Shown here in pieces: positions 627-11,400 of a stretch of DNA of 64,000 nt. Location of the stretch: contig OZ024742.1 in NCBI GenBank assembly GCA_964016885.1, positions 24,676,001 through 24,740,000 on the forward strand, written 5' to 3'. Position numbers and translations under genes: made by a program. The stretch comes from Eledone cirrhosa. Lineage: Eukaryota. Under the pieces are notes generated by a model. It worked only from the letters and a program-made list of their open reading frames with translations, did no database searches and was not told where the DNA came from. The number at the start of each line of letters is the position of its first letter. Position 1 is the first letter of the stretch.

Positions 627-957
627 GGAGGCACATGGCTTACAATCGAAAGGTTGTGAGTTCAATTCTCAGACCGGGTGATGTGTTGTTTCCTTGAGCA
701 AGACACTTTATTTCACATTGCTCCAGTTTACTCAGCTGTAGAAATGAGATGATAGGGCCTAGGGTCCCTATCATTCCACTGCAAAGTGGTCGTGGAGGTG
801 CCACGGCAGAAAAGCACCCAGCAGTCACTGTAAATGAGGTTGGTGTTAGGAAGGGCATCCAGCTGTAGAAATCAAGCCAGAATCAGTTCCCGTACCACCC
901 TTGCAAGCAGGGAAAAGTGGACATAAAATGAAATGATGATGATGATGAAATGATGAT
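627..957 (+). mobile_element. tRNA-derived SINE (family A; CORE-like centre, RTE-type (GAT)n tail), copy with a deletion in the tRNA head
   Basis: B-box-like GAGTTCAATTCT; CORE-like 'tgtttccttgagcaagacacttt'; 3' part 'ggtgttaggaagggcatccagctgtagaaa...(gat)n' shared with the RTE LINE 3' UTR; near-identical to 7567-7908 but lacks ~21 nt of the head. Confidence 0.85.
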
Positions 958-1489: not shown

Positions 1490-1928
1490 CTGCATAGTAG
1501 TGAGACATGAGCAGCAACTACAGTGGATATGCAACAGCTGGAGAAATGAAGCAAGCATGCTCCGTTGGATGTGCAATGTCAATGTGCATGAACGACCAAG
1601 CATACATGAGTTGAGAGAGAAACTGTGAATAAGAGGAATAAGTTGTAGTGTGTGGGAGAGAAGACTGCATTGGTATGGACATGTGATGCACATGGAGGAT
1701 GACCACTCGGTAAAGAAGTACCAAGATATCCCAGTAGAAAGAAGATGCAGTAGAGGAAGACTACGGAAAACATAGGCGGAGGTGGTGAGAGCGAACCTCA
1801 GATTGCTGAAGCTTACGGAGGAGATGACGAAGGACTGTGAGAAGTGGAGAGATGCTGCGCTGAATAGGACCCATCCCACCTTTGCAAGCAGGAAAAAGCG
1901 GACGTAAATTGATGAGGATGATGATGAT
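1490..1928 (+). mobile_element. Degenerate 3' fragment of an RTE-clade LINE
   Basis: Interrupted 'NEASMLRWMCNV...RRLHWYGHVMHM...RGR' remnant ending in gacgtaaa...(gat)n; similar fragments at ~8255-8515 (+), ~18040-18400 (+), ~23010-23165 (-), ~35715-36075 (-). Confidence 0.8.
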
Positions 1929-2004
1929 ATATATGTCATAAACAGGTAAAATTCCAGAGTAACAAGACTCTCTATTTAGCCTTTATAAAATGAATTTATG
2001 ATAA

Positions 2005-2190
2005 TAACAATGTTTCTACTTTTAGCACAAAACCAGCAGTTATCCCAGTGCATTACTGGTACTTTATTTCATCAACCCCCATAAGGAAGAAAGGTAAAGT
2101 TAACCTCGACGGGATTTGAACTCAGAAAGTAAAGGGCCATAACTCTATGCTGCAAAGTATGGCGTCGTACTTCCCTATACTACCAAACCA
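2005..2190 (-). mobile_element. SINE family B copy
   Basis: Same sequence as 1212-1400 with substitutions. Confidence 0.85.
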
Positions 2191-2227
2191 ATGGGTATAA
2201 ATCCAAGTTGAAGCTACAATATAGCGC

Positions 2228-2261
<34 letters not shown>

Positions 2262-2263
<2 letters not shown>

Positions 2264-3879
2264 GTAGCTTTTGTAGACCTGGAAAAAGCCTTTGACAGAG
2301 TCCCCCACTCCATTATCTGGTGGGCTCTTAGAAAACTAGGTGTAGATGAATGGATGTGAGAGCTATACAAGCTATGTATAATGAAACAGTCAGTAAGGTT
2401 AGAATTAACAATGAATATTGTGAAGAATTTAGTGTAAAAGTTGGTGTTCACCAAGGCTCTGTCCTTAGCTCCCTTCTATTTATTATTGCCCTTCAGGCTA
2501 TAACAGAGGAGTTCAAGACCGGCTGCCTATGGAAACTCCTATACGCAGATGATCTAATGCTCATAGCTGAATCAATGGCTGAACTAGAAAAGAAATTCCA
2601 AACATGGAAACATGGCCTAGAATCAAAAGGCCTTAAAGTTAACTTGTCTAAGACTAAAGTCCTAGTTTGTAGAAAGGAAAATAAGGCACAGGTACCCTCA
2701 GGGAAATGGCCTTGCTCGGTGTGTAGGAAAGGAGTAGGCAGAAATTCAATTTTATGTCCCAAATGCAAAGTATGGGTACATAAAAGATGTAGTGGGATCA
2801 CAGGTAAACTATCTAAGAATGTAGACTTTATATGTTGCCGATGCTCTGGTGCAATAGGTAGCAAGTGTCCACAGGATATTAGGCCCTTCTATTGCCCAGA
2901 TGGTTCTATAGAAATAGTAGACACTTTCTGTTACCTGGGTGATGAAATCAGCAGAGGTGGAGGGTGTTCTGAAAGTACAGTAGCCAGAGTCAGAACGGGA
3001 TGGAAAAAGTTCAGAGAGCTTATACCGCTATTGGCCACAAAAGGTTTCTCTCTAAAAATGAAAGGCAGATTGTATGATGCTTGTATACGAAAAGCAATGC
3101 TACATGGCAGTGAGACATGGGCATTGCATGCAGAGGAAAGGAACAAAGCATGCATGCTCTGTTGGATGTGTAATAGTAACATACGTGAACGGCAAAGCAT
3201 AAATGAACTAAGTGAGAAATTAGGAATAAGAGGGATCAGATGCTGTTTACTCAAGAGAAGACTACGTTGGTATGGCCACGTGATGCGCATGAAAGATGAC
3301 AGCTGTATAAAAAAGTACAGGGCGATCAAAATTGATGGTAGTTACGGAGTAGGTAGACCCAGAAAAACATGGGACGATCTGATAAATTCTGACCTTACAC
3401 ACTTGCACCTCTCTAAGACAATGTCACTGGACCGAGATCTTTGGCGCTACGCAGTAATACAGAAGACCCGCCTTGCCTATGTACAAAGCGAAACCTACAG
3501 TCAGTAGGCACCTCTTAACCAAATATACACCCCAATCCACTACCCCTACCCTATCCTCCCACTCCCACCAACACCACCCCTCTCTATAAAGTTGGTACCA
3601 CAACATCCAGTCCAAATAAATGAGATAAATGAGATCGAGATTGTGTAGGTGTCACGAGAAAAAACACACAGTCCACGCTGTAATGTGACCGTGTAGGTAG
3701 CACGGTAAAAGGTTCCCAGTCCCACACTGTAAATGTGGTTGGTGTTAGGAAGGCATAAAGCCATAGAAACCCTGCCAGATAGTACTATATGAGTGAGACA
3801 CGGTCACCTGACCAACCATGCCTCAAATGGGACAACTCCCGTCTAACCCATGCTAGCGTGGAAAGTGGACATTAAACGA

Positions 3880-3883
<4 letters not shown>
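2262..3883 (+). mobile_element. 5'-truncated RTE-clade LINE (RT C-terminal half plus 3' UTR)
   Basis: 'AFVDLEKAFDRVP' at the start; ORF 2350-3507 has GVHQGSVLS, LLYADD, YLG and RRLRWYGHV motifs; 3' UTR ends 'ggacattaaacga'; colinear with 26470-28040. Confidence 0.95.
2350..3507 (+). pseudogene. Partial RTE reverse transcriptase ORF with an internal Cys/His (PHD-like) finger
   Basis: 385-aa ORF from the track; YADD catalytic motif; C-x2-C...C-x2-C-x4-H-x2-C...C-x2-C insertion; 5' part missing. Confidence 0.9.
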
Positions 3884-3936
<53 letters not shown>

Positions 3937-4027
3937 CATGAAAAGTTATATTTAAAATTGTTGGGTTACAACTAGTAAATATTTATAACTGATATAAAAG
4001 CACTCGACAAATATTTGGAGTATATTT

Positions 4028-5280
4028 ACAATATTAAATAAATGGAAACTATATTTATAAAACCATATTTATTTCATTATATATATTTCAGGGATATCAT
4101 ATTAACAATATGCTATGCCTTCCTCAGACAAAATACAATATAAACAGTTTTATAGATAAATAGATTCGACATACCGTAATAACATCGACTTGCATTTGAA
4201 GAGGTTGATATGGCAGTGAAAAAATTGTACACAGAGAGAAAGAAAGAGAGAAAAAAGAAAGAAAGACAGAAAACGAAGAAAAGGAAGAAAAAGAAGAAAT
4301 GCATGGAACAAAATAGAGAGATGGAAAGATAGATAAAGAGAAGAACTTCATGTAAAGAAACAGAAAGAGATATATATATATATAGAGAGAGGAAATAGAG
4401 ATAGATACATATATATATAGAAAATTAGGTAGTGGGAGGTCTGTTGAGTAAATGTATCAATGATACATTTATTTATTTATTTATTTAGCTCTAGTATTAA
4501 TGTAAGGGAGATATATATAGAGAGAAAAAAATATAGAGAGAGAAAAAATATAGCAAGAGAAAAAATTTAAAAATAACCAGATATATGCGAGGCGCAAAAA
4601 CCCTATGTTTTAATGTAGAGGTATTAGTATTTATAAAACATCCACTATATTGTAAATATCAGTATTCCTGAATGAGACAAGTATCCATAGTGTGTGAAAA
4701 TTAATGAACTTATGTTTAGTTTTTTAAAAAAATTCACATGTTTATGTAATAGCTACAAACATCCATGTGAATCTACATGATCAATTCTGCAAAGCCTAAG
4801 TTCACGGAAAACATTCTCAATGTGGTATAAAAATTTGAGTATACATATATGAGTATTATTATTCCTGTCTTTACTCTACAAGATTATCTATCAAGCAGAA
4901 ATAGAGAGCAGATTTCAATATACTAATAAAAATATATATCAGAAACAAAACTAAAAAATAACAATAATAATAATAAGTAATAATAAAATAGAAAACTAAA
5001 AAAATATTACGAAAGAATATTACATATTAAAAATATTACGTATTAAAAAATTTACTTATTAAAAATATTAAAAATAAAAATATTAGAAAATACTACAATA
5101 ATAAAAAAAAATAATATTAGAAAATACTACAATAATAAAAAAAATTAAAATAAACCACAAAGATCAACCCTTCAAAATTAATTGACAATATATTGCCAAG
5201 TTCATTATAAGCATCAGAGTCGAAAAACAGACAAAGCCAAAAATTATCTATCAAATCACATCTAGCAAAGATCATTTCAA
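4028..5280 (-). repeat. Left arm of a ~1.25-kb inverted repeat (inverted pLTR)
   Basis: Reverse complement of 6066-7316 with only a handful of substitutions seen by eye; mirrored ORFs 4124-4351(-) and 6993-7178(+) give the same peptide. Confidence 0.97.
4070..4135 (-). ncRNA. Type I minimal hammerhead ribozyme (intact core)
   Basis: Minus strand: UAUUUUGU-CUGAGGA-AGGCAUAGCAUAUUGUUAAUAUGAUAUCCCU-GAAA-UAUAUA-UA-AUGAAAUA. Has CUGANGA and GAAA cores; stem II closed by AGG/CCU with an inner CAUAUU/AAUAUG hairpin; palindromic stem III; 8-bp stem I with 2 G-U pairs. Confidence 0.8.
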
Positions 5281-5830
5281 TAGACATACAATAAAATTAA
5301 CCTACTCATCCACCAAAAATTTAGCACAAAATATTAATAGAATAAATAATAGGAACTTAAAACCTAGTGATAATAGCATAAATAATATACAAGTTAACAA
5401 ATGTAACTGTAGAGATAGATCTAAATGTCCGTTAAATAACAACTGCTTAGTTAAAAATATAGTATACAATTGTAATGTTAATACTGACTCTAATTCTTTT
5501 AACTACGTCGGTTCCACATCGACGGAATTTAAACTTCGCTATAATAACCACAAGAATTCTTTCACAGATCCAAGCAAAAAATCCTCAACGGCACTATCAG
5601 GCGTACTCTGGCAACTTAAGCTAGATAACGTTAGATATTCGACGGCTTGGAATATAGTCTCAAGAGGGATTCCTTTTAATTCATCCTCTGAGACATGTGA
5701 CCTCTGCGCAGAGGAGATATTCTTTATACTAAAATCTAAAAATTCCCTTAATCTACGGACAAATTTATTCAGTTGTTGCAAACATAGATTAAACTCAACG
5801 TTTAAATATAAATTTAAATTTAAAATGTAG
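5276..5830 (+). pseudogene. PLE C-terminal linker plus GIY-YIG endonuclease (open frame, no start codon, 5'-truncated)
   Basis: Manual translation: FNRHTIKLTYSSTKNL...KCNCRDRSKCPLNNNCLVKNIVYNCNV...FNYVGSTSTEFKLRYNNHKNSF...TALSGVLWQLK...AWNIV...CDLCAEEIFFILKSKNSLNLRTNLFSCCKHR...KFKM* (TAG ends at 5830). IVY/YVG dyad plus the conserved R, H, E and N positions of PLE GIY-YIG domains. Confidence 0.9.
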
Positions 5831-6065
5831 TATATTTAGTTTGATTTATATTTATATGGGAAACTAGCCGATAAATCTTTGATTCCTTCTTTTTATTCTT
5901 TTTTATTTTTTATTTTAATTTTATTTTTATTTAATCATTCCTCATGAAAAATTAAGCTACCCTAAAAGCTGATGCTCCAAATATTTCGAATAAACGTTAC
6001 ACTAGATAAACTTCTATATTAAATATAAGAACACATGTAGACCAAATTTGGGCATCCTAAACTTT

Positions 6066-7908
<1,843 letters not shown>

Positions 7909-8565: not shown

Positions 8566-8987
8566 GCACACACACACACACACACACACATGCACACATA
8601 CTTTCACACACATGCACACACATACTCACACGTACATACGCACACACACACACACACACACACAAACACATGCACACATACTCATACACACACATGCACA
8701 CACATACTCACACACACACACACACTCACATAGACTCACGCACATATAGACATACTCACACTCTCACACACACATACACACGGATACTCACACACACACA
8801 CACATTCACACACATACTCACATGGTCGCACATTTGCACTGACACACCCATTCTCAGACACACTTGCTCTTACGTACACACATACTCAGGCACACACACT
8901 GACACACACTCCAAACAATGGATTAAAGTGTAATGTAATATTTCCAGGAATTATTCCATGTCTTTGAATATTTGGTAGCTGTTACTG

Positions 8988-9034
<47 letters not shown>

Positions 9035-9113
9035 GTTACTACTGTTACTACTCCTACTACTACTACTGTTACTACCACTACTAGTACTGTTACTACTACT
9101 ACTAATACTACTG

Positions 9114-9165
<52 letters not shown>

Positions 9166-9182
9166 CATTACTACTGCTGCTG

Positions 9183-9227
<45 letters not shown>

Positions 9228-9347
9228 TTGTTACTACCACTACTACTACTGTTACTACTACTGCTACTACTACTACCACTACTACTACTACTGCTATTAC
9301 TACCACTACTAGTACTGCTGCTGCTACCATTACAACTATTTCTACTG

Positions 9348-9412
<65 letters not shown>

Positions 9413-10005
9413 ATCATTACAACTATTTCTACCTCTGCTGCTACTACTACTACCAAAATAACTCAGATAATATCAATAAAACATCAAAAATCAATATTAA
9501 CAACATCATTTGTTATAATAACATTGTAATTATTATTATTATCATTATTATCATTATTATTATTATTATTATTATCATTATTATTTACATAATGGCTGTT
9601 GTGGATGATGATGATGATGATAATGTAATAATTATCATTATTATTTCATTCATAATGCAGATCTTAATCATAATAATTATTCTAACTTTAATAACTCATA
9701 ACCATTGTAATAATTACCACCACCACAGCTACCACCACAGTAACCACCAACACCACCAGCACAGCTACCACTACAGCTACCACCACTACCAACACCACAG
9801 CTACCACCACCACCACTACAATCATCACTACCTCAACTACCATTGTTACAACCCACAACCACCACTGTTACCACCACCACCACAATCACCCTGCCCCCAC
9901 CACAACCACCACTGTTACCACCACCACAACCACGACAACCCCCCCCCCCCCAGCACAACCACCACCACTGTTGCTACAACCACTACTGTTACCATGACCA
10001 CTACC
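8566..10005. repeat. Cluster of simple repeats: (CA)n 8566-8910, (ACT/GCT)n 8980-9453, (ATT)n ~9530-9585, (CAC)n ~9715-10005
   Basis: Directly visible; accounts for the poly-T/V/L/H ORFs. Confidence 0.95.
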
Positions 10006-10129
10006 ATCCAATGCTATATTTGTCATCTCCATAACACCTCATCCCTATTCTTTTTATTACTTTAATGCTCCTCATAATTGTCAACATGTCTGGGCTTTTT
10101 CCTGTAGCAATAATACAGTTAAAGAGATG

Positions 10130-10790
10130 TTGAAGTGCTTTGATAAGTGGTTCACAACTCACAATCTACAACCAGCAAATTGCTCAAGTTACGAAGTTTG
10201 TATATCTCGGTCACAAACTATCTTTAAACAACAATGGAATGGTTGCTGCGCAGTATCGCATCGCTCTAGGTTGGGCAGCTTTCAACAGGAACAAGGAAGT
10301 ACTAACATCAAAACGAGTTTCCTATCATTTGAAGGCTAAGATCTTTGATACTTACATCCTACCAGTTGTGTTATATAGTCTTGACTGTGTTAATTGGACG
10401 ACAAGGTCACTTCAGAAGCTCCCTACATTCCCGAACCACATCATGAGACTTATGACTGGCAAGCAGCTCAACGATCGTATCTGTATCAGTGAGCTGCTCA
10501 ACATTACCAGACTTAGACCAATTACATCAATTGTCAAGTCAAGAGTACTCAAACTATACGGTCATATAAAAAGATCAACTCGTGGTGTGAGTAAGTTATG
10601 TCTGGGCGGTAGGTTGGCTGGTAAGAGAAGCAGAGGCCGGCAGCCAAAACGATTGGCTTGGCAATGTCAACTTATGGAGGACTGGACTTGATCTTTGCTC
10701 TTTAAACTCTGTTGCTGGTGATTGAACTTTGTGGAGAAAAATATCTCATGTTGATGCGCAGACTGCAACTGGTGGAGTTTAGCACCACAA
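10130..10790 (+). mobile_element. 3' fragment of a different RTE-like LINE
   Basis: ORF 10140-10691: 'VTKFVYLG...RIALGWAAF...KAKIFDTYILPVVLY...LKLYGHIKR...GKRSRGRQPKR', the typical post-RT C-terminal region of RTE elements. Confidence 0.85.
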
Positions 10791-10809
10791 GAAGAATCAT
10801 TGTCAAAAT

Positions 10810-10993
10810 CATTACCGCCACCAGCATCACCACCATCACCACCATCATCATCATCACCACCATCATCATCACCACCATCATGATCATCATCACCACCATC
10901 ACCACCATCACCACCACCACCAGCATCACCACCACCATCAGCATCACCACCACAACCAGCATCACCACCACCATCATCACCATCATCATCACT
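10810..10993. repeat. (CAT/CAC)n microsatellite
   Basis: Directly visible. Confidence 0.95.
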
Positions 10994-11003
10994 GCAAGTG
11001 CTA

Positions 11004-11400
11004 TAATAATAATAATAATTGTTTCTACTTTTGGCACAAGGCCAGCAAATTTACCCAGTGCATTACTGGTACTTTATTTTATCGACCCCCGTAAGGATGA
11101 AAGGCAAAGTTAAACTTGGCGGGATTTGAACTCAGACCATAAAGGGCCATAACTCTTTGCTGCAAAGCATGGCGTCCGACTCTCTACTGATACTGCCAAT
11201 CCACCAATAATAATAATAATAATTGTTTCTACTTTTGGCACAAGGCCAGCAATTACCCAGTGCATTACTGGTACTTTATTATATCGACCCCGTAAGGATG
11301 AAAGGCAAAGTCAACCTCGGTGGGATTTGAACTCAGATCGTAAAGGGACGTAACTATGCTGGAAAGCATGGCGTCCGACTCTCTGCCGATACTGCCAATC
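11004..11400 (-). mobile_element. Two tandem SINE family B copies (11004-11206, 11207-11400)
   Basis: Each has the B-box, central domain and (ATT)n tail on the - strand. Confidence 0.88.

What the first reader, a model, noticed from the sequence alone, without database searches (positions are those of the whole stretch)
4070..4135. Matched pair of hammerheads: intact on the minus strand, single core mutation on the plus strand
Seen: the left arm reads CUGAGGA...GAAA-UAUAUA-UA on - (4070-4135); the right arm reads CUGAGCA on + (7209-7274). Known: G8 of CUGANGA pairs with C3 and is catalytically required, and PLE minimal hammerheads have palindromic stem III loops and may cleave as dimers. Inference: only minus-strand transcripts would self-cleave, giving a natural active/dead control pair. 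Stem II is long (31 nt) for a minimal hammerhead.
Basis: partly seen in the sequence, partly recalled or inferred. Interest (0 to 1): 0.72.

Follow-up and report, generated by a model that had tools for sequence, protein, structure and literature searches.

The report
Retrotransposon hammerhead ribozymes, inverted pair
The two motifs are the hammerhead-ribozyme sequence that a very abundant Penelope-like retrotransposon carries near its 3' end, seen twice because the insertion is a head-to-head inverted pair; the one-base core change in one copy is likely random decay, so the finding is real but of a known kind.

Summary
On the minus strand, 4135-4070 reads stem I / CUGAGGA / 31-nt hairpin / GAA / AUAUAUAU / A / stem I. 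Its mirror copy at 7209-7274 (+) differs only by G8->C at 7222. Both lie in a 1.26-kb inverted repeat made of two 5'-truncated copies of one retrotransposon, inserted head to head in a (TA)n microsatellite.

The element is a Penelope-like element (PLE) of the Hydra clade. It has a 3.8-kb unit and one ORF whose model is telomerase-like, with a C-terminal nuclease-like part. At least 6,243 copies of this motif region occur in the 3.0-Gb genome.

Comparison supports a real hammerhead. In 18 related subfamily copies 94.9% of predicted pairs hold, with 5 compensatory pairs. Two families only 36-43% identical in protein carry the same architecture at the same place, one with the U3-A8 core covariant. 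A published octopus Hydra-clade hammerhead is built the same way.

Rfam models miss all of them, and no RNA data show cleavage. G8 is mutated in only 19 of 6,243 copies, so the "dead" twin is ordinary decay. Under the dimer model it would still be cut in trans. Inserted copies never end at the cut site.

Verdict: a new family member of a known kind, with an unusually long helix II.

The parts
3934..5280 (-). Inverted, 5'-truncated copy of the PLE: 3'UTR, hammerhead and a 144-nt stretch past the cut site. It corresponds to unit positions 2644 to 3798+144.
   Evidence: BLAST of the window against the full-length unit from L033; gapped arm alignment.
4070..4135 (-). Hammerhead motif with an intact core. 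Stem I 4135-4128 pairs with 4077-4070. Core CUGAGGA is 4127-4121. Stem II is 4120-4090. G12-A14 are 4089-4087. Palindromic helix III is 4086-4079. H17 is A4078, and the predicted cut lies between 4078 and 4077.
   Evidence: Sequence; descriptor hit; covariation in alignment A3; model R1 scores 91.8 bits, though this copy is a training sequence.
3934..4020 (-). The 87-nt 'tail', present on the left copy only. The left copy ends 144 nt past the cut site and the right copy 57 nt past it.
   Evidence: Copy ends fall in two classes, +55/57 and +139/144; window map.
5275..7323 (+). 5'-truncated copy of the PLE, unit positions 1846 to 3798+57. It holds the last ~185 codons of the ORF (the putative endonuclease part, stop at 5830), the 1.4-kb 3'UTR and the hammerhead.
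7209..7274 (+). Hammerhead motif with G8->C at 7222 (CUGAGCA). It is otherwise identical to 4135-4070.
   Evidence: It is one of the 19 of 6,243 copies with a non-G at position 8 (row C3:24683209-24683240).
3869..3933 (.). (TA)n microsatellite flanking the left end; the target sequence.
7324..7570 (.). (TA)n microsatellite flanking the right end; the target sequence.

Best explanation
The site at 4135-4070 (minus strand) is the type-I hammerhead motif of a Hydra-clade Penelope-like retrotransposon, and it is predicted, not shown, to cut its own RNA after A4078, most likely as a dimer. Shown here: the locus is one insertion made of two 5'-truncated copies joined head to head inside a (TA)n repeat, with 3' ends pointing outward, so each strand carries one hammerhead about 55-145 nt from the end of its copy. 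In full-length copies the same motif sits in the upstream pseudo-LTR, with the cut site 187 nt before the ATG, and again 1.4 kb after the stop codon. The two cut sites are 3,798 nt apart. Inferred: helix III (AUAUAUAU) is too short to close within one molecule but is self-complementary. Two copies, in a multi-unit transcript or in separate RNAs, would therefore pair through helices III and I, and each core would cut the other's site. This would trim read-through or tandem transcripts to unit RNAs with 5'-OH and 2',3'-cyclic phosphate ends. Shown: cleavage does not set the ends of new DNA copies. All copies examined read through the cut site at both ends and stop at two fixed points 55-57 or 139-144 nt beyond it, like the two internal reverse-transcription start sites described for another PLE. 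The right-arm G8C is a private, post-insertion mutation. It would inactivate that core but likely leave its cut site usable in trans.
For: Identity of the element. L033 holds a 745-codon open frame. It shows RW(R/K), DKT, LYRDD, a CxCX5C linker (CNCRDRSKC), Y-V-G...R...H, CxxC and CxH. These match the Hydra-clade description and the alignment rows of Craig et al. 2021 (PMC8557442; section 11 read whole, supplement rows). The AlphaFold model has pLDDT 83.9, and its best Foldseek hits are telomerase reverse transcriptases (3du5_A, E 9e-9). The nearest ESM Atlas clusters carry HTH_animal, GIY-YIG or RVT_1 in part of their members. All 38 copy ends examined abut (TA)n.

The motif itself. One descriptor hit in the window against 0.01 expected. 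The motif region occurs 6,243 times in the genome. Of the first 100 rows, 51 read CUGAGGA and 47 CUGAUGA, so the two large subfamilies differ at N7, the one free core position. The other 2 rows carry core changes.

Related subfamilies. 13 of 18 downstream regions pass the descriptor, against 0 hits in reversed-sequence controls. Three of the 5 misses hold the motif with one change. In alignment A3, which includes those 3, 94.9% of 411 cells pair against 30-57% when partners are slid. Five stem II pairs show compensatory changes, and 0 of 500 shuffles reach the covariation score. Model R1 finds two non-training variants: L101 at 55.5 bits and L096:354-432 at 45.9 bits. The latter has helix III ATGCGCAT, still a palindrome.

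Other families, 36-43% identical to this one in protein. Family A (L035) has a 7-bp stem I, CUGAGGA, a 26-nt hairpin, GAA and ACCACUGGU followed by A, 260 nt before its ORF. Family C (L046, twice, 3,548 nt apart) has UUGAGAA (the U3-A8 covariant), G10.1-C11.1, a 54-nt stem II, a 6-bp stem III and a GUC site. Its minimum-energy fold gives the three-way junction unaided.

Published parallel. Hydra-1_oBim of Octopus bimaculoides is listed with an A-U closed 7-bp stem II and helix III 'acca a tggt' (Craig et al. 2021, File S2 row).

Dimer. The double-hammerhead fold scores -18.4 kcal/mol, against -2.9 for each monomeric hammerhead fold.

G8C effect. It abolished cleavage in the Anolis PLE hammerhead.
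Against: No Rfam hammerhead model matches this site, the full element or families A-C. This held at gathering scores and at E<=10, even on 131 nt alone. The G10.1-C11.1 pair typical of hammerheads is A-U here, and A.A in one subfamily. A C.C mismatch sits in stem II of most copies. The monomer hammerhead fold (-2.9) is far from the minimum-energy fold (-9.4). The 79-nt RNA folds no better than shuffles (z +0.84), and the cofold optimum (-26.3) is not the active dimer. No RNA evidence exists: the 4 runs that hold the element are contigs of unknown kind. Genomic copies carry no footprint of cleavage. Of 42 alignments spanning the motif, none ends at the cut site: 18 end at +55/57, 20 at +139/144, 3 run on into the ORF and 1 stops at +15 where its locus ends. 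All 30 copies that hold the 5' region extend 8 to at least 1,299 nt upstream of the cut site. Family B showed no motif in 3 loci, even with a relaxed descriptor. From the literature: metazoan PLE hammerheads cleave poorly in vitro (Cervera and de la Pena 2014, PMC4209133, parts 1-2 of 4 read). In the Anolis PLE the hammerhead was dispensable for insertion in vitro, and no RNA-seq reads ended at its site.
Confidence: 0.72

Rival explanations
1. The motif is a hammerhead by descent, but cleavage plays no part in making new copies. It persists because it lies next to the reverse-transcription entry sites, as a passenger or as an RNA structure that the element's protein recognises. Any cutting in vivo is marginal.
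For: Copy ends lie at +55/57 and +139/144, never at the cut site, and all 30 copies that hold the 5' region read through it. A cut at the 3' hammerhead would remove those end points from a linear RNA. In the Anolis PLE the hammerhead mutants did not affect insertion in vitro and cleavage needed the protein. Craig et al. 2021 note that PLE clades without hammerheads proliferate well and suggest hammerheads may parasitise PLEs. The active fold has weak thermodynamics.
Against: The catalytic letters, not just a hairpin, are kept across families 36-43% identical in protein, including the paired C3-G8 to U3-A8 switch. The palindromic character of helix III is kept through four simultaneous changes, ATATATAT to ATGCGCAT. 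The H17 letter and the A15.1-U16.1 pair are kept as well. That pattern is what selection for catalysis predicts.
Confidence: 0.22
2. It is a chance hammerhead-like string in an AT-rich repeat, copied thousands of times with the repeat.
For: The region has a low-complexity, AT-rich context. Rfam gives no hit. The fold is unstable. Nearly identical copies of one young family say nothing about selection by themselves.
Against: Expected chance hits are 0.01 per window and 0 in reversed controls. There are compensatory changes in diverged subfamilies. Two distant families and a published octopus element have the same architecture at the same place.
Confidence: 0.03

Closest known systems
Hammerheads of Hydra-clade Penelope-like elements (Craig, Yushenova, Rodriguez, Arkhipova 2021, File S2), e.g. 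Hydra-1_oBim of Octopus bimaculoides
   Same: Both belong to elements with a C-terminal nuclease, (TA)n targeting and a hammerhead near the 3' end. Both are type I with a 4-8 bp stem I, the CUGANGA core and GAA. Both have a 4+4 helix III with a 0-2 nt loop that begins with A and ends with U, and cut after A or U. The octopus row also closes stem II with A-U.
   Different: Stem II here is 31 nt: 11 pairs plus two mismatches. The Hydra-clade rows I saw have stem II hairpins of 12-22 nt. The unit is 3.8 kb, whereas the paper says the elements are generally under 3 kb. This family is only about 36-42% identical in protein to the families I could compare. No tree was built.
Minimal hammerheads of metazoan PLEs (Cervera and de la Pena 2014)
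   Same: The motif lies in the pseudo-LTR. Helix II is larger than usual, helix III is tiny and palindromic, and a dimeric active form is expected. There is a U3-A8 variant in some families. Opposite-strand pairs a few hundred bases apart are reported there, as seen here.
   Different: Their consensus has a bulged base after A9 and a conserved G10.1-C11.1. Here an A-U pair, or a bulged A plus an extra U, sits in that place. Helix II is longer than their 6-8 bp.
Hammerhead of the Anolis Poseidon element PAc (Frangieh et al. 2024)
   Same: It is a PLE hammerhead in the pseudo-LTR. G8C kills it. Inserted copies end at two internal reverse-transcription start sites that produce a 'tail', not at the cut site.
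   Different: In PAc the ORF starts inside the hammerhead and the tail is 30-40 bp. Here the ATG is 187 nt past the cut and the two end points are about 87 nt apart. PAc belongs to a different PLE clade.
Rfam Hammerhead_1 and the other Rfam hammerhead families
   Same: They share the catalytic core letters and the three-helix topology.
   Different: No Rfam model reaches even E<=10 on this site. The likely reasons are the long helix II and the minimal helix III.
Animal non-LTR retrozymes (small tandem hammerhead repeats giving circular RNAs)
   Same: They carry type-I hammerheads with a short palindromic helix III. A 2026 preprint, of which I read the abstract only, proposes that they derive from PLE pseudo-LTRs.
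   Different: This locus holds truncated copies of an autonomous 3.8-kb element in inverted orientation, not a short direct tandem repeat.

Membership tests
Hammerhead ribozyme, type I | Core C3 U4 G5 A6 N7 G8 A9 ... G12 A13 A14, the A15.1-U16.1 pair, and H17 not G | tested here: met
   CUGAGGA, GAA, A4086-U4079 and A4078. The right arm fails at G8.
Hammerhead ribozyme, type I | Three helices around the core, supported by covariation | tested here: met
   In A3, 94.9% of cells pair and 5 pairs are compensatory, all in helix II. Helices I and III vary on one side only. Families A and C have different stem sequences with the same topology.
Hammerhead ribozyme, type I | G10.1-C11.1 closing pair of helix II | tested here: not met
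   It is A-U in this family and A.A in L087/L092. It is G-C in relatives L077/L080/L101 and in family C.
Hammerhead ribozyme, type I | Match to a curated Rfam hammerhead model | tested here: not met
   There was no hammerhead hit at gathering score or at E<=10.
Hammerhead ribozyme, type I | Site-specific self-cleavage giving 5'-OH and 2',3'-cyclic phosphate ends | not testable with these tools
   No RNA run was listed, and the contig runs say nothing about RNA ends.
PLE minimal hammerhead (Cervera and de la Pena 2014) | Located in the pseudo-LTR of a PLE, upstream of the ORF and again at the 3' end | tested here: met
   In L033 the two motifs are 3,798 nt apart and flank the ORF.
PLE minimal hammerhead (Cervera and de la Pena 2014) | Short palindromic helix III that allows a dimeric active form | tested here: met
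   AUAUAUAU here, AUAUGUAU (with wobble pairs) and AUGCGCAU in relatives. The dimer fold scores -18.4 against 2 x -2.9 kcal/mol.
PLE minimal hammerhead (Cervera and de la Pena 2014) | An extra base between A9 and 10.1 | tested here: inconclusive
   A4120 can be read either as that bulge or as the partner of U4090. The A.A subfamily favours the bulge reading.
Penelope-like element, Hydra clade (Craig et al. 2021) | Reverse transcriptase closest to telomerase RT | tested here: met
   The top Foldseek hits of the model are TERT chains. Sequence profiles found nothing in Pfam or the PDB.
Penelope-like element, Hydra clade (Craig et al. 2021) | C-terminal GIY-YIG nuclease without the CCHH motif, a CxCX5C linker, and CxxC and CxH motifs | tested here: met
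   Read by eye on the translation against the text and alignment rows. I saw CNCRDRSKC, only one Cys between the IVY and YVG motifs, CDLC and CKH. Pfam GIY-YIG itself does not hit.
Penelope-like element, Hydra clade (Craig et al. 2021) | RWK and DKT motifs in the N-terminal and RT part | tested here: met
   RWR in this family, RWK in family A, and DKT present.
Penelope-like element, Hydra clade (Craig et al. 2021) | Insertion into (TA)n | tested here: met
   All 38 copy ends abut TA repeats, as do both ends in the window.
Penelope-like element, Hydra clade (Craig et al. 2021) | Placement inside the clade on a tree with reference elements | not tested
   Reference sequences were available only as cut rows of a supplement, so no tree was built.
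Penelope-like element, Hydra clade (Craig et al. 2021) | Short element (generally under 3 kb) | tested here: not met
   The unit is 3,798 nt because of a 1.4-kb 3'UTR.

The most novel reading that the evidence does not exclude
The hammerhead does not trim templates. It makes circular unit-length RNAs that are the real template. The cut site lies upstream of both fixed 3' end points of the copies, so a cut linear RNA would lose its reverse-transcription entry site. A cut-and-ligated circle would keep that site. Copying it round and round from +57 or +144 would give what is seen in this family: fixed 3' ends, an intact hammerhead junction in every copy, and upstream pseudo-LTRs of any length. 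Its thousands of young copies would make this family a natural data set for testing the rolling-circle idea first raised in 2014.
Probability: 0.15. Interest if true: 0.6.

Novelty: new member of a known kind. Interest (0 to 1): 0.25.

Why it matters
By itself it matters little. Hammerheads in Penelope-like elements, their inverted insertion pairs and their (TA)n targeting are all in print, including for an octopus Hydra-clade element. Three things are useful. First, Rfam's hammerhead models miss this whole lineage (helix II of 20-54 nt, minimal helix III, A-U closing pair, U3-A8 variant). Genome annotations of such animals will therefore lack thousands of ribozyme motifs unless a dedicated model is used. 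Second, the family is very young and very abundant, with at least 6,243 motif copies. It has two clean 3' end classes and no copy ending at the cut site, which bears on the open question of what PLE hammerheads are for. Third, rare natural core mutants exist among near-identical copies and could serve as ready-made bench controls. They are decay products, not a built-in feature.

Tried and rejected
- Rfam found no hammerhead family. I ran gathering thresholds on the window and E<=10 on 3.8 kb, on 131 nt, on full-length copies and on families A-C. The only hits were microRNA-like matches to TA repeats.
- Minimum-energy folding of the monomer does not give the hammerhead and is no better than shuffles.
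- RNA evidence: no RNA holder was listed. Four contig runs of unknown kind from one study were laid on the element. They gave fragmented repeat contigs and no information on RNA ends.
- Pfam found nothing on the full ORF, the window's ORF remnant, families A and B, or homologue P0002.
- A profile search of the PDB found nothing.
- The search of earlier findings by sequence returned nothing.
- My first, strict descriptor missed families A and C because they have an odd-length helix III or the U3-A8 core. I found them by eye and then with a relaxed descriptor.
- Family B gave no motif in L045, L105 or L106, even with a relaxed descriptor. The motif may lie outside the stretches I fetched.
- MAFFT misaligned family A with this family, so the covariation counts use the 18 F0-lineage copies only.
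- I tested whether copies start or end at the cut site as a footprint of cleavage. None does.
- The paper by Lunse, Weinberg and Breaker (2017) on small PLE hammerheads that cleave as dimers is not in the library. I saw it only as a phrase matched in citing papers, and its content is recalled.

Full report
**What is there**

On the minus strand the window reads UAUUUUGU (4135-4128), CUGAGGA (4127-4121), a 31-nt hairpin (4120-4090), GAA (4089-4087), AUAUAUAU (4086-4079), A4078 and AUGAAAUA (4077-4070). The plus strand at 7209-7274 is the same except for CUGAGCA. The two sites lie in an inverted repeat that the repeat finder reports as 1090-nt arms, 99% complementary. A gapped alignment extends it to 5280-4021 against 6066-7323, with two 1-nt indels and 9 mismatches. 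G4122/C7222 is one of those mismatches. A hammerhead descriptor I wrote asks for the core, at least 3 closing pairs in stem II, a palindromic helix III, U-H, and at least 4 pairs in stem I. It hits only this site in both strands of the window, against a mean of 0.01 hits in 100 Markov shuffles.

**What the repeat is**

The 280 nt around the motif match at least 40 places in the 3.0-Gb genome at 99-100% identity, from 1,970 first-look candidates. Longer copies hold a single 745-codon open frame (L033). The frame runs from an ATG 188 nt after the predicted cut site to a stop at +2401, followed by a 1.4-kb 3'UTR and the motif again. The two cut sites are 3,798 nt apart.

Pfam, a PDB profile search and hmmscan see nothing in the protein. 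An AlphaFold model (pLDDT 83.9) has telomerase reverse transcriptases as its best Foldseek matches (3du5_A, E 9e-9). The nearest ESM Atlas clusters carry HTH_animal, GIY-YIG or RVT_1 in part of their members.

The translation shows RWR, DKT, LYRDD, the linker CNCRDRSKC (CxCX5C), Y-V-G...R...H, CDLC and CKH, with only one Cys between the two halves of the GIY-YIG motif. These are the marks of the Hydra clade of Penelope-like elements in Craig et al. 2021 (PMC8557442; section 11 whole, passages, supplement alignment rows). That paper also reports (TA)n targeting and 'canonical' hammerheads for the clade. All 38 copy ends I examined abut TA repeats. I built no tree, so clade membership rests on motifs.

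**Layout in the window**

The left copy runs 5280 to 3934 on the minus strand and covers unit positions 2644 to 3798+144. The right copy runs about 5275 to 7323 on the plus strand and covers unit positions 1846 to 3798+57. It includes the last ~185 codons of the ORF, with the stop at 5830. Both 3' ends point outward into (TA)n.

This head-to-head form is the rule, not the exception. By my hand count of the first 100 of 6,243 motif sites listed, 74 lie in -/+ pairs less than 10 kb apart. Craig et al. describe the same inverted 5'-truncated partner and a 'tail' at only one end. Here the left copy has the longer end (+144) and the right the shorter (+57). The other inverted pairs in my loci also combine one short and one long end.

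**Is it a real hammerhead?**

Copies of the young family are nearly identical: 44 of 46 hits in partly overlapping loci are the same. They are therefore uninformative about selection, and diverged relatives were needed.

- Within the motif region, the first 100 of 6,243 sites split into 51 CUGAGGA and 47 CUGAUGA, plus 2 with core changes. The two big subfamilies differ at N7, the one unconstrained core position.
- A search with a homologue from another species brought in older relatives of the family. I fetched their 3' regions. The relaxed descriptor hit 13 of 18 regions and nothing in reversed-sequence controls. Three of the 5 misses carry the motif with one change, and 2 have no alignable region.
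- An alignment of all 18 motif copies, misses included, gives 94.9% paired cells, against 30-57% when partners are slid. Five pairs show compensatory changes, all in stem II, and 0 of 500 shuffles reach the covariation score. The copies were partly picked by a pairing-aware descriptor, which inflates the paired percentage but not the compensatory changes.
- A covariance model built from them finds two variants it was not trained on. One has a 36-nt stem II and helix III ATGCGCAT, still a palindrome.
- Two other PLE families in this genome are only 36-43% identical to this one in protein, yet they carry the same architecture just upstream of their ORFs. Family A has a 7-bp stem I, CUGAGGA, a 26-nt perfect hairpin, GAA and ACCACUGGU followed by A. 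Family C has UUGAGAA (the U3-A8 covariant known from Cercyon elements), G10.1-C11.1, a 54-nt stem II, a 6-bp stem III and a GUC site. Plain energy minimisation reproduces the three-way junction of family C.
- The published hammerhead of Hydra-1_oBim (Octopus bimaculoides) has the same build, including an A-U closed stem II and helix III 'acca a tggt'.

**Evidence against**

- No Rfam hammerhead model scores any of these sites, even at E<=10.
- The G10.1-C11.1 pair is replaced by A-U in this family, and by A.A in one subfamily.
- The monomeric hammerhead fold is weak: -2.9 kcal/mol against a minimum-energy fold of -9.4, with z +0.84 against shuffles.
- Family B showed no motif.
- No RNA data could be had.

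**How it likely works**

Helix III cannot close within one molecule, since it would be 2 bp plus a 4-nt loop or a 0-nt loop. It is self-complementary, however. A double hammerhead, with helices I and III formed between two copies, scores -18.4 kcal/mol against -5.8 for two monomeric hammerhead folds. The cofold optimum of -26.3 is a different duplex. This matches the dimer model of Cervera and de la Pena 2014 (PMC4209133, parts 1-2 of 4 read), who found only low activity in vitro.

In that topology the core of one molecule cuts the site of the other. It follows, as an inference, that the G8C copy could not cut a partner but could itself be cut by RNA from any intact copy. G8C did abolish cleavage in the Anolis PLE hammerhead, and C3G/G8C partly restored it (Frangieh et al. 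2024, PMC11167929, passages read). Genome-wide, 19 of 6,243 motif sites have a non-G at position 8. The window's right arm is one of them. That rate is what random decay of a family about 0.3-0.8% diverged would give.

**What cleavage does not do**

Of 42 alignments spanning the motif, 18 end 55-57 nt past the cut site and 20 end 139-144 nt past it. Three continue into the ORF (upstream pseudo-LTRs) and one is cut off by the end of its locus. None ends at the cut site. Of 30 copies that hold the 5' region, all extend upstream of the cut site, by 8 to at least 1,299 nt. The templates of these insertions were therefore uncut at both hammerheads.

The two fixed ends resemble the two internal reverse-transcription start sites that create the PLE 'tail' in Anolis, where the hammerhead was also dispensable for insertion in vitro. 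Two readings remain. In one, the ribozyme acts on RNAs that are not templates, such as messenger or read-through RNAs. In the other, it makes circles that are then copied for more than one turn, as proposed in 2014. The data here fit both.

**Verdict**

The motif is a genuine PLE hammerhead by comparative evidence, in a typical inverted insertion. It is a new family of a known kind, and its long helix II (31 nt; 20-54 nt in relatives) is its only unusual trait. The 'dead' twin is ordinary decay.

Noticed in passing
L001-L030 and window 3934-4077 / 7267-7323: Copies of the family end at two discrete points, 55-57 nt (18 alignments) or 139-144 nt (20 alignments) past the predicted cut site. Inverted pairs combine one short and one long end. 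This looks like the PLE 'tail', but it is about 87 nt long rather than the 30-40 bp described in print.
   Followed up: partly
G000 genome-wide: There are at least 6,243 copies of the motif region. Two subfamilies of about equal size differ at core position N7 (G or U). By a hand count of the 100 rows listed, 74 lie in -/+ inverted pairs, some only 67-200 bp apart.
   Followed up: partly
Alignment A3, columns 23 and 47 (window 4117 and 4093): A C.C mismatch at the fourth position of stem II is kept in nearly all diverged copies while the pairs around it covary. It could be a conserved non-canonical contact.
   Followed up: no
L046:1198-1310 and 4746-4858; also G000:C1:437200471-437213154: A second PLE family (784-aa ORF in most copies) has a full hammerhead with the U3-A8 core variant, a 54-nt helix II, a 6-bp helix III and a GUC site. 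The family also occurs as tandem arrays with 3,531-nt spacing.
   Followed up: partly
L045, L105, L106: A third related PLE family (713-aa ORF) showed no hammerhead motif in the stretches I fetched. L045 has an inverted junction about 370 nt upstream of its ORF.
   Followed up: partly
L096:354-432: This variant hammerhead has helix III ATGCGCAT and a 36-nt helix II. It lies beside a standard copy of the family on the opposite strand.
   Followed up: no
window 2350-3507 (+): A 385-codon open frame carries a partial RVT_1 reverse transcriptase domain followed by a PHD finger. It is a fragment of a different retroelement, just left of the PLE insertion.
   Followed up: no
window 639-916 and 7600-7877: A 278-nt direct repeat (95% identical) starts right after a TA repeat in both places. 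There is a weak, sub-threshold tRNA-like Rfam match at 7569-7600, and ARAGORN finds no tRNA. It is possibly a SINE that also targets TA repeats.
   Followed up: no
window 8900-11050: There are long imperfect trinucleotide repeats (ACC/ACT-rich on the plus strand) that give open frames of low complexity in several frames.
   Followed up: no
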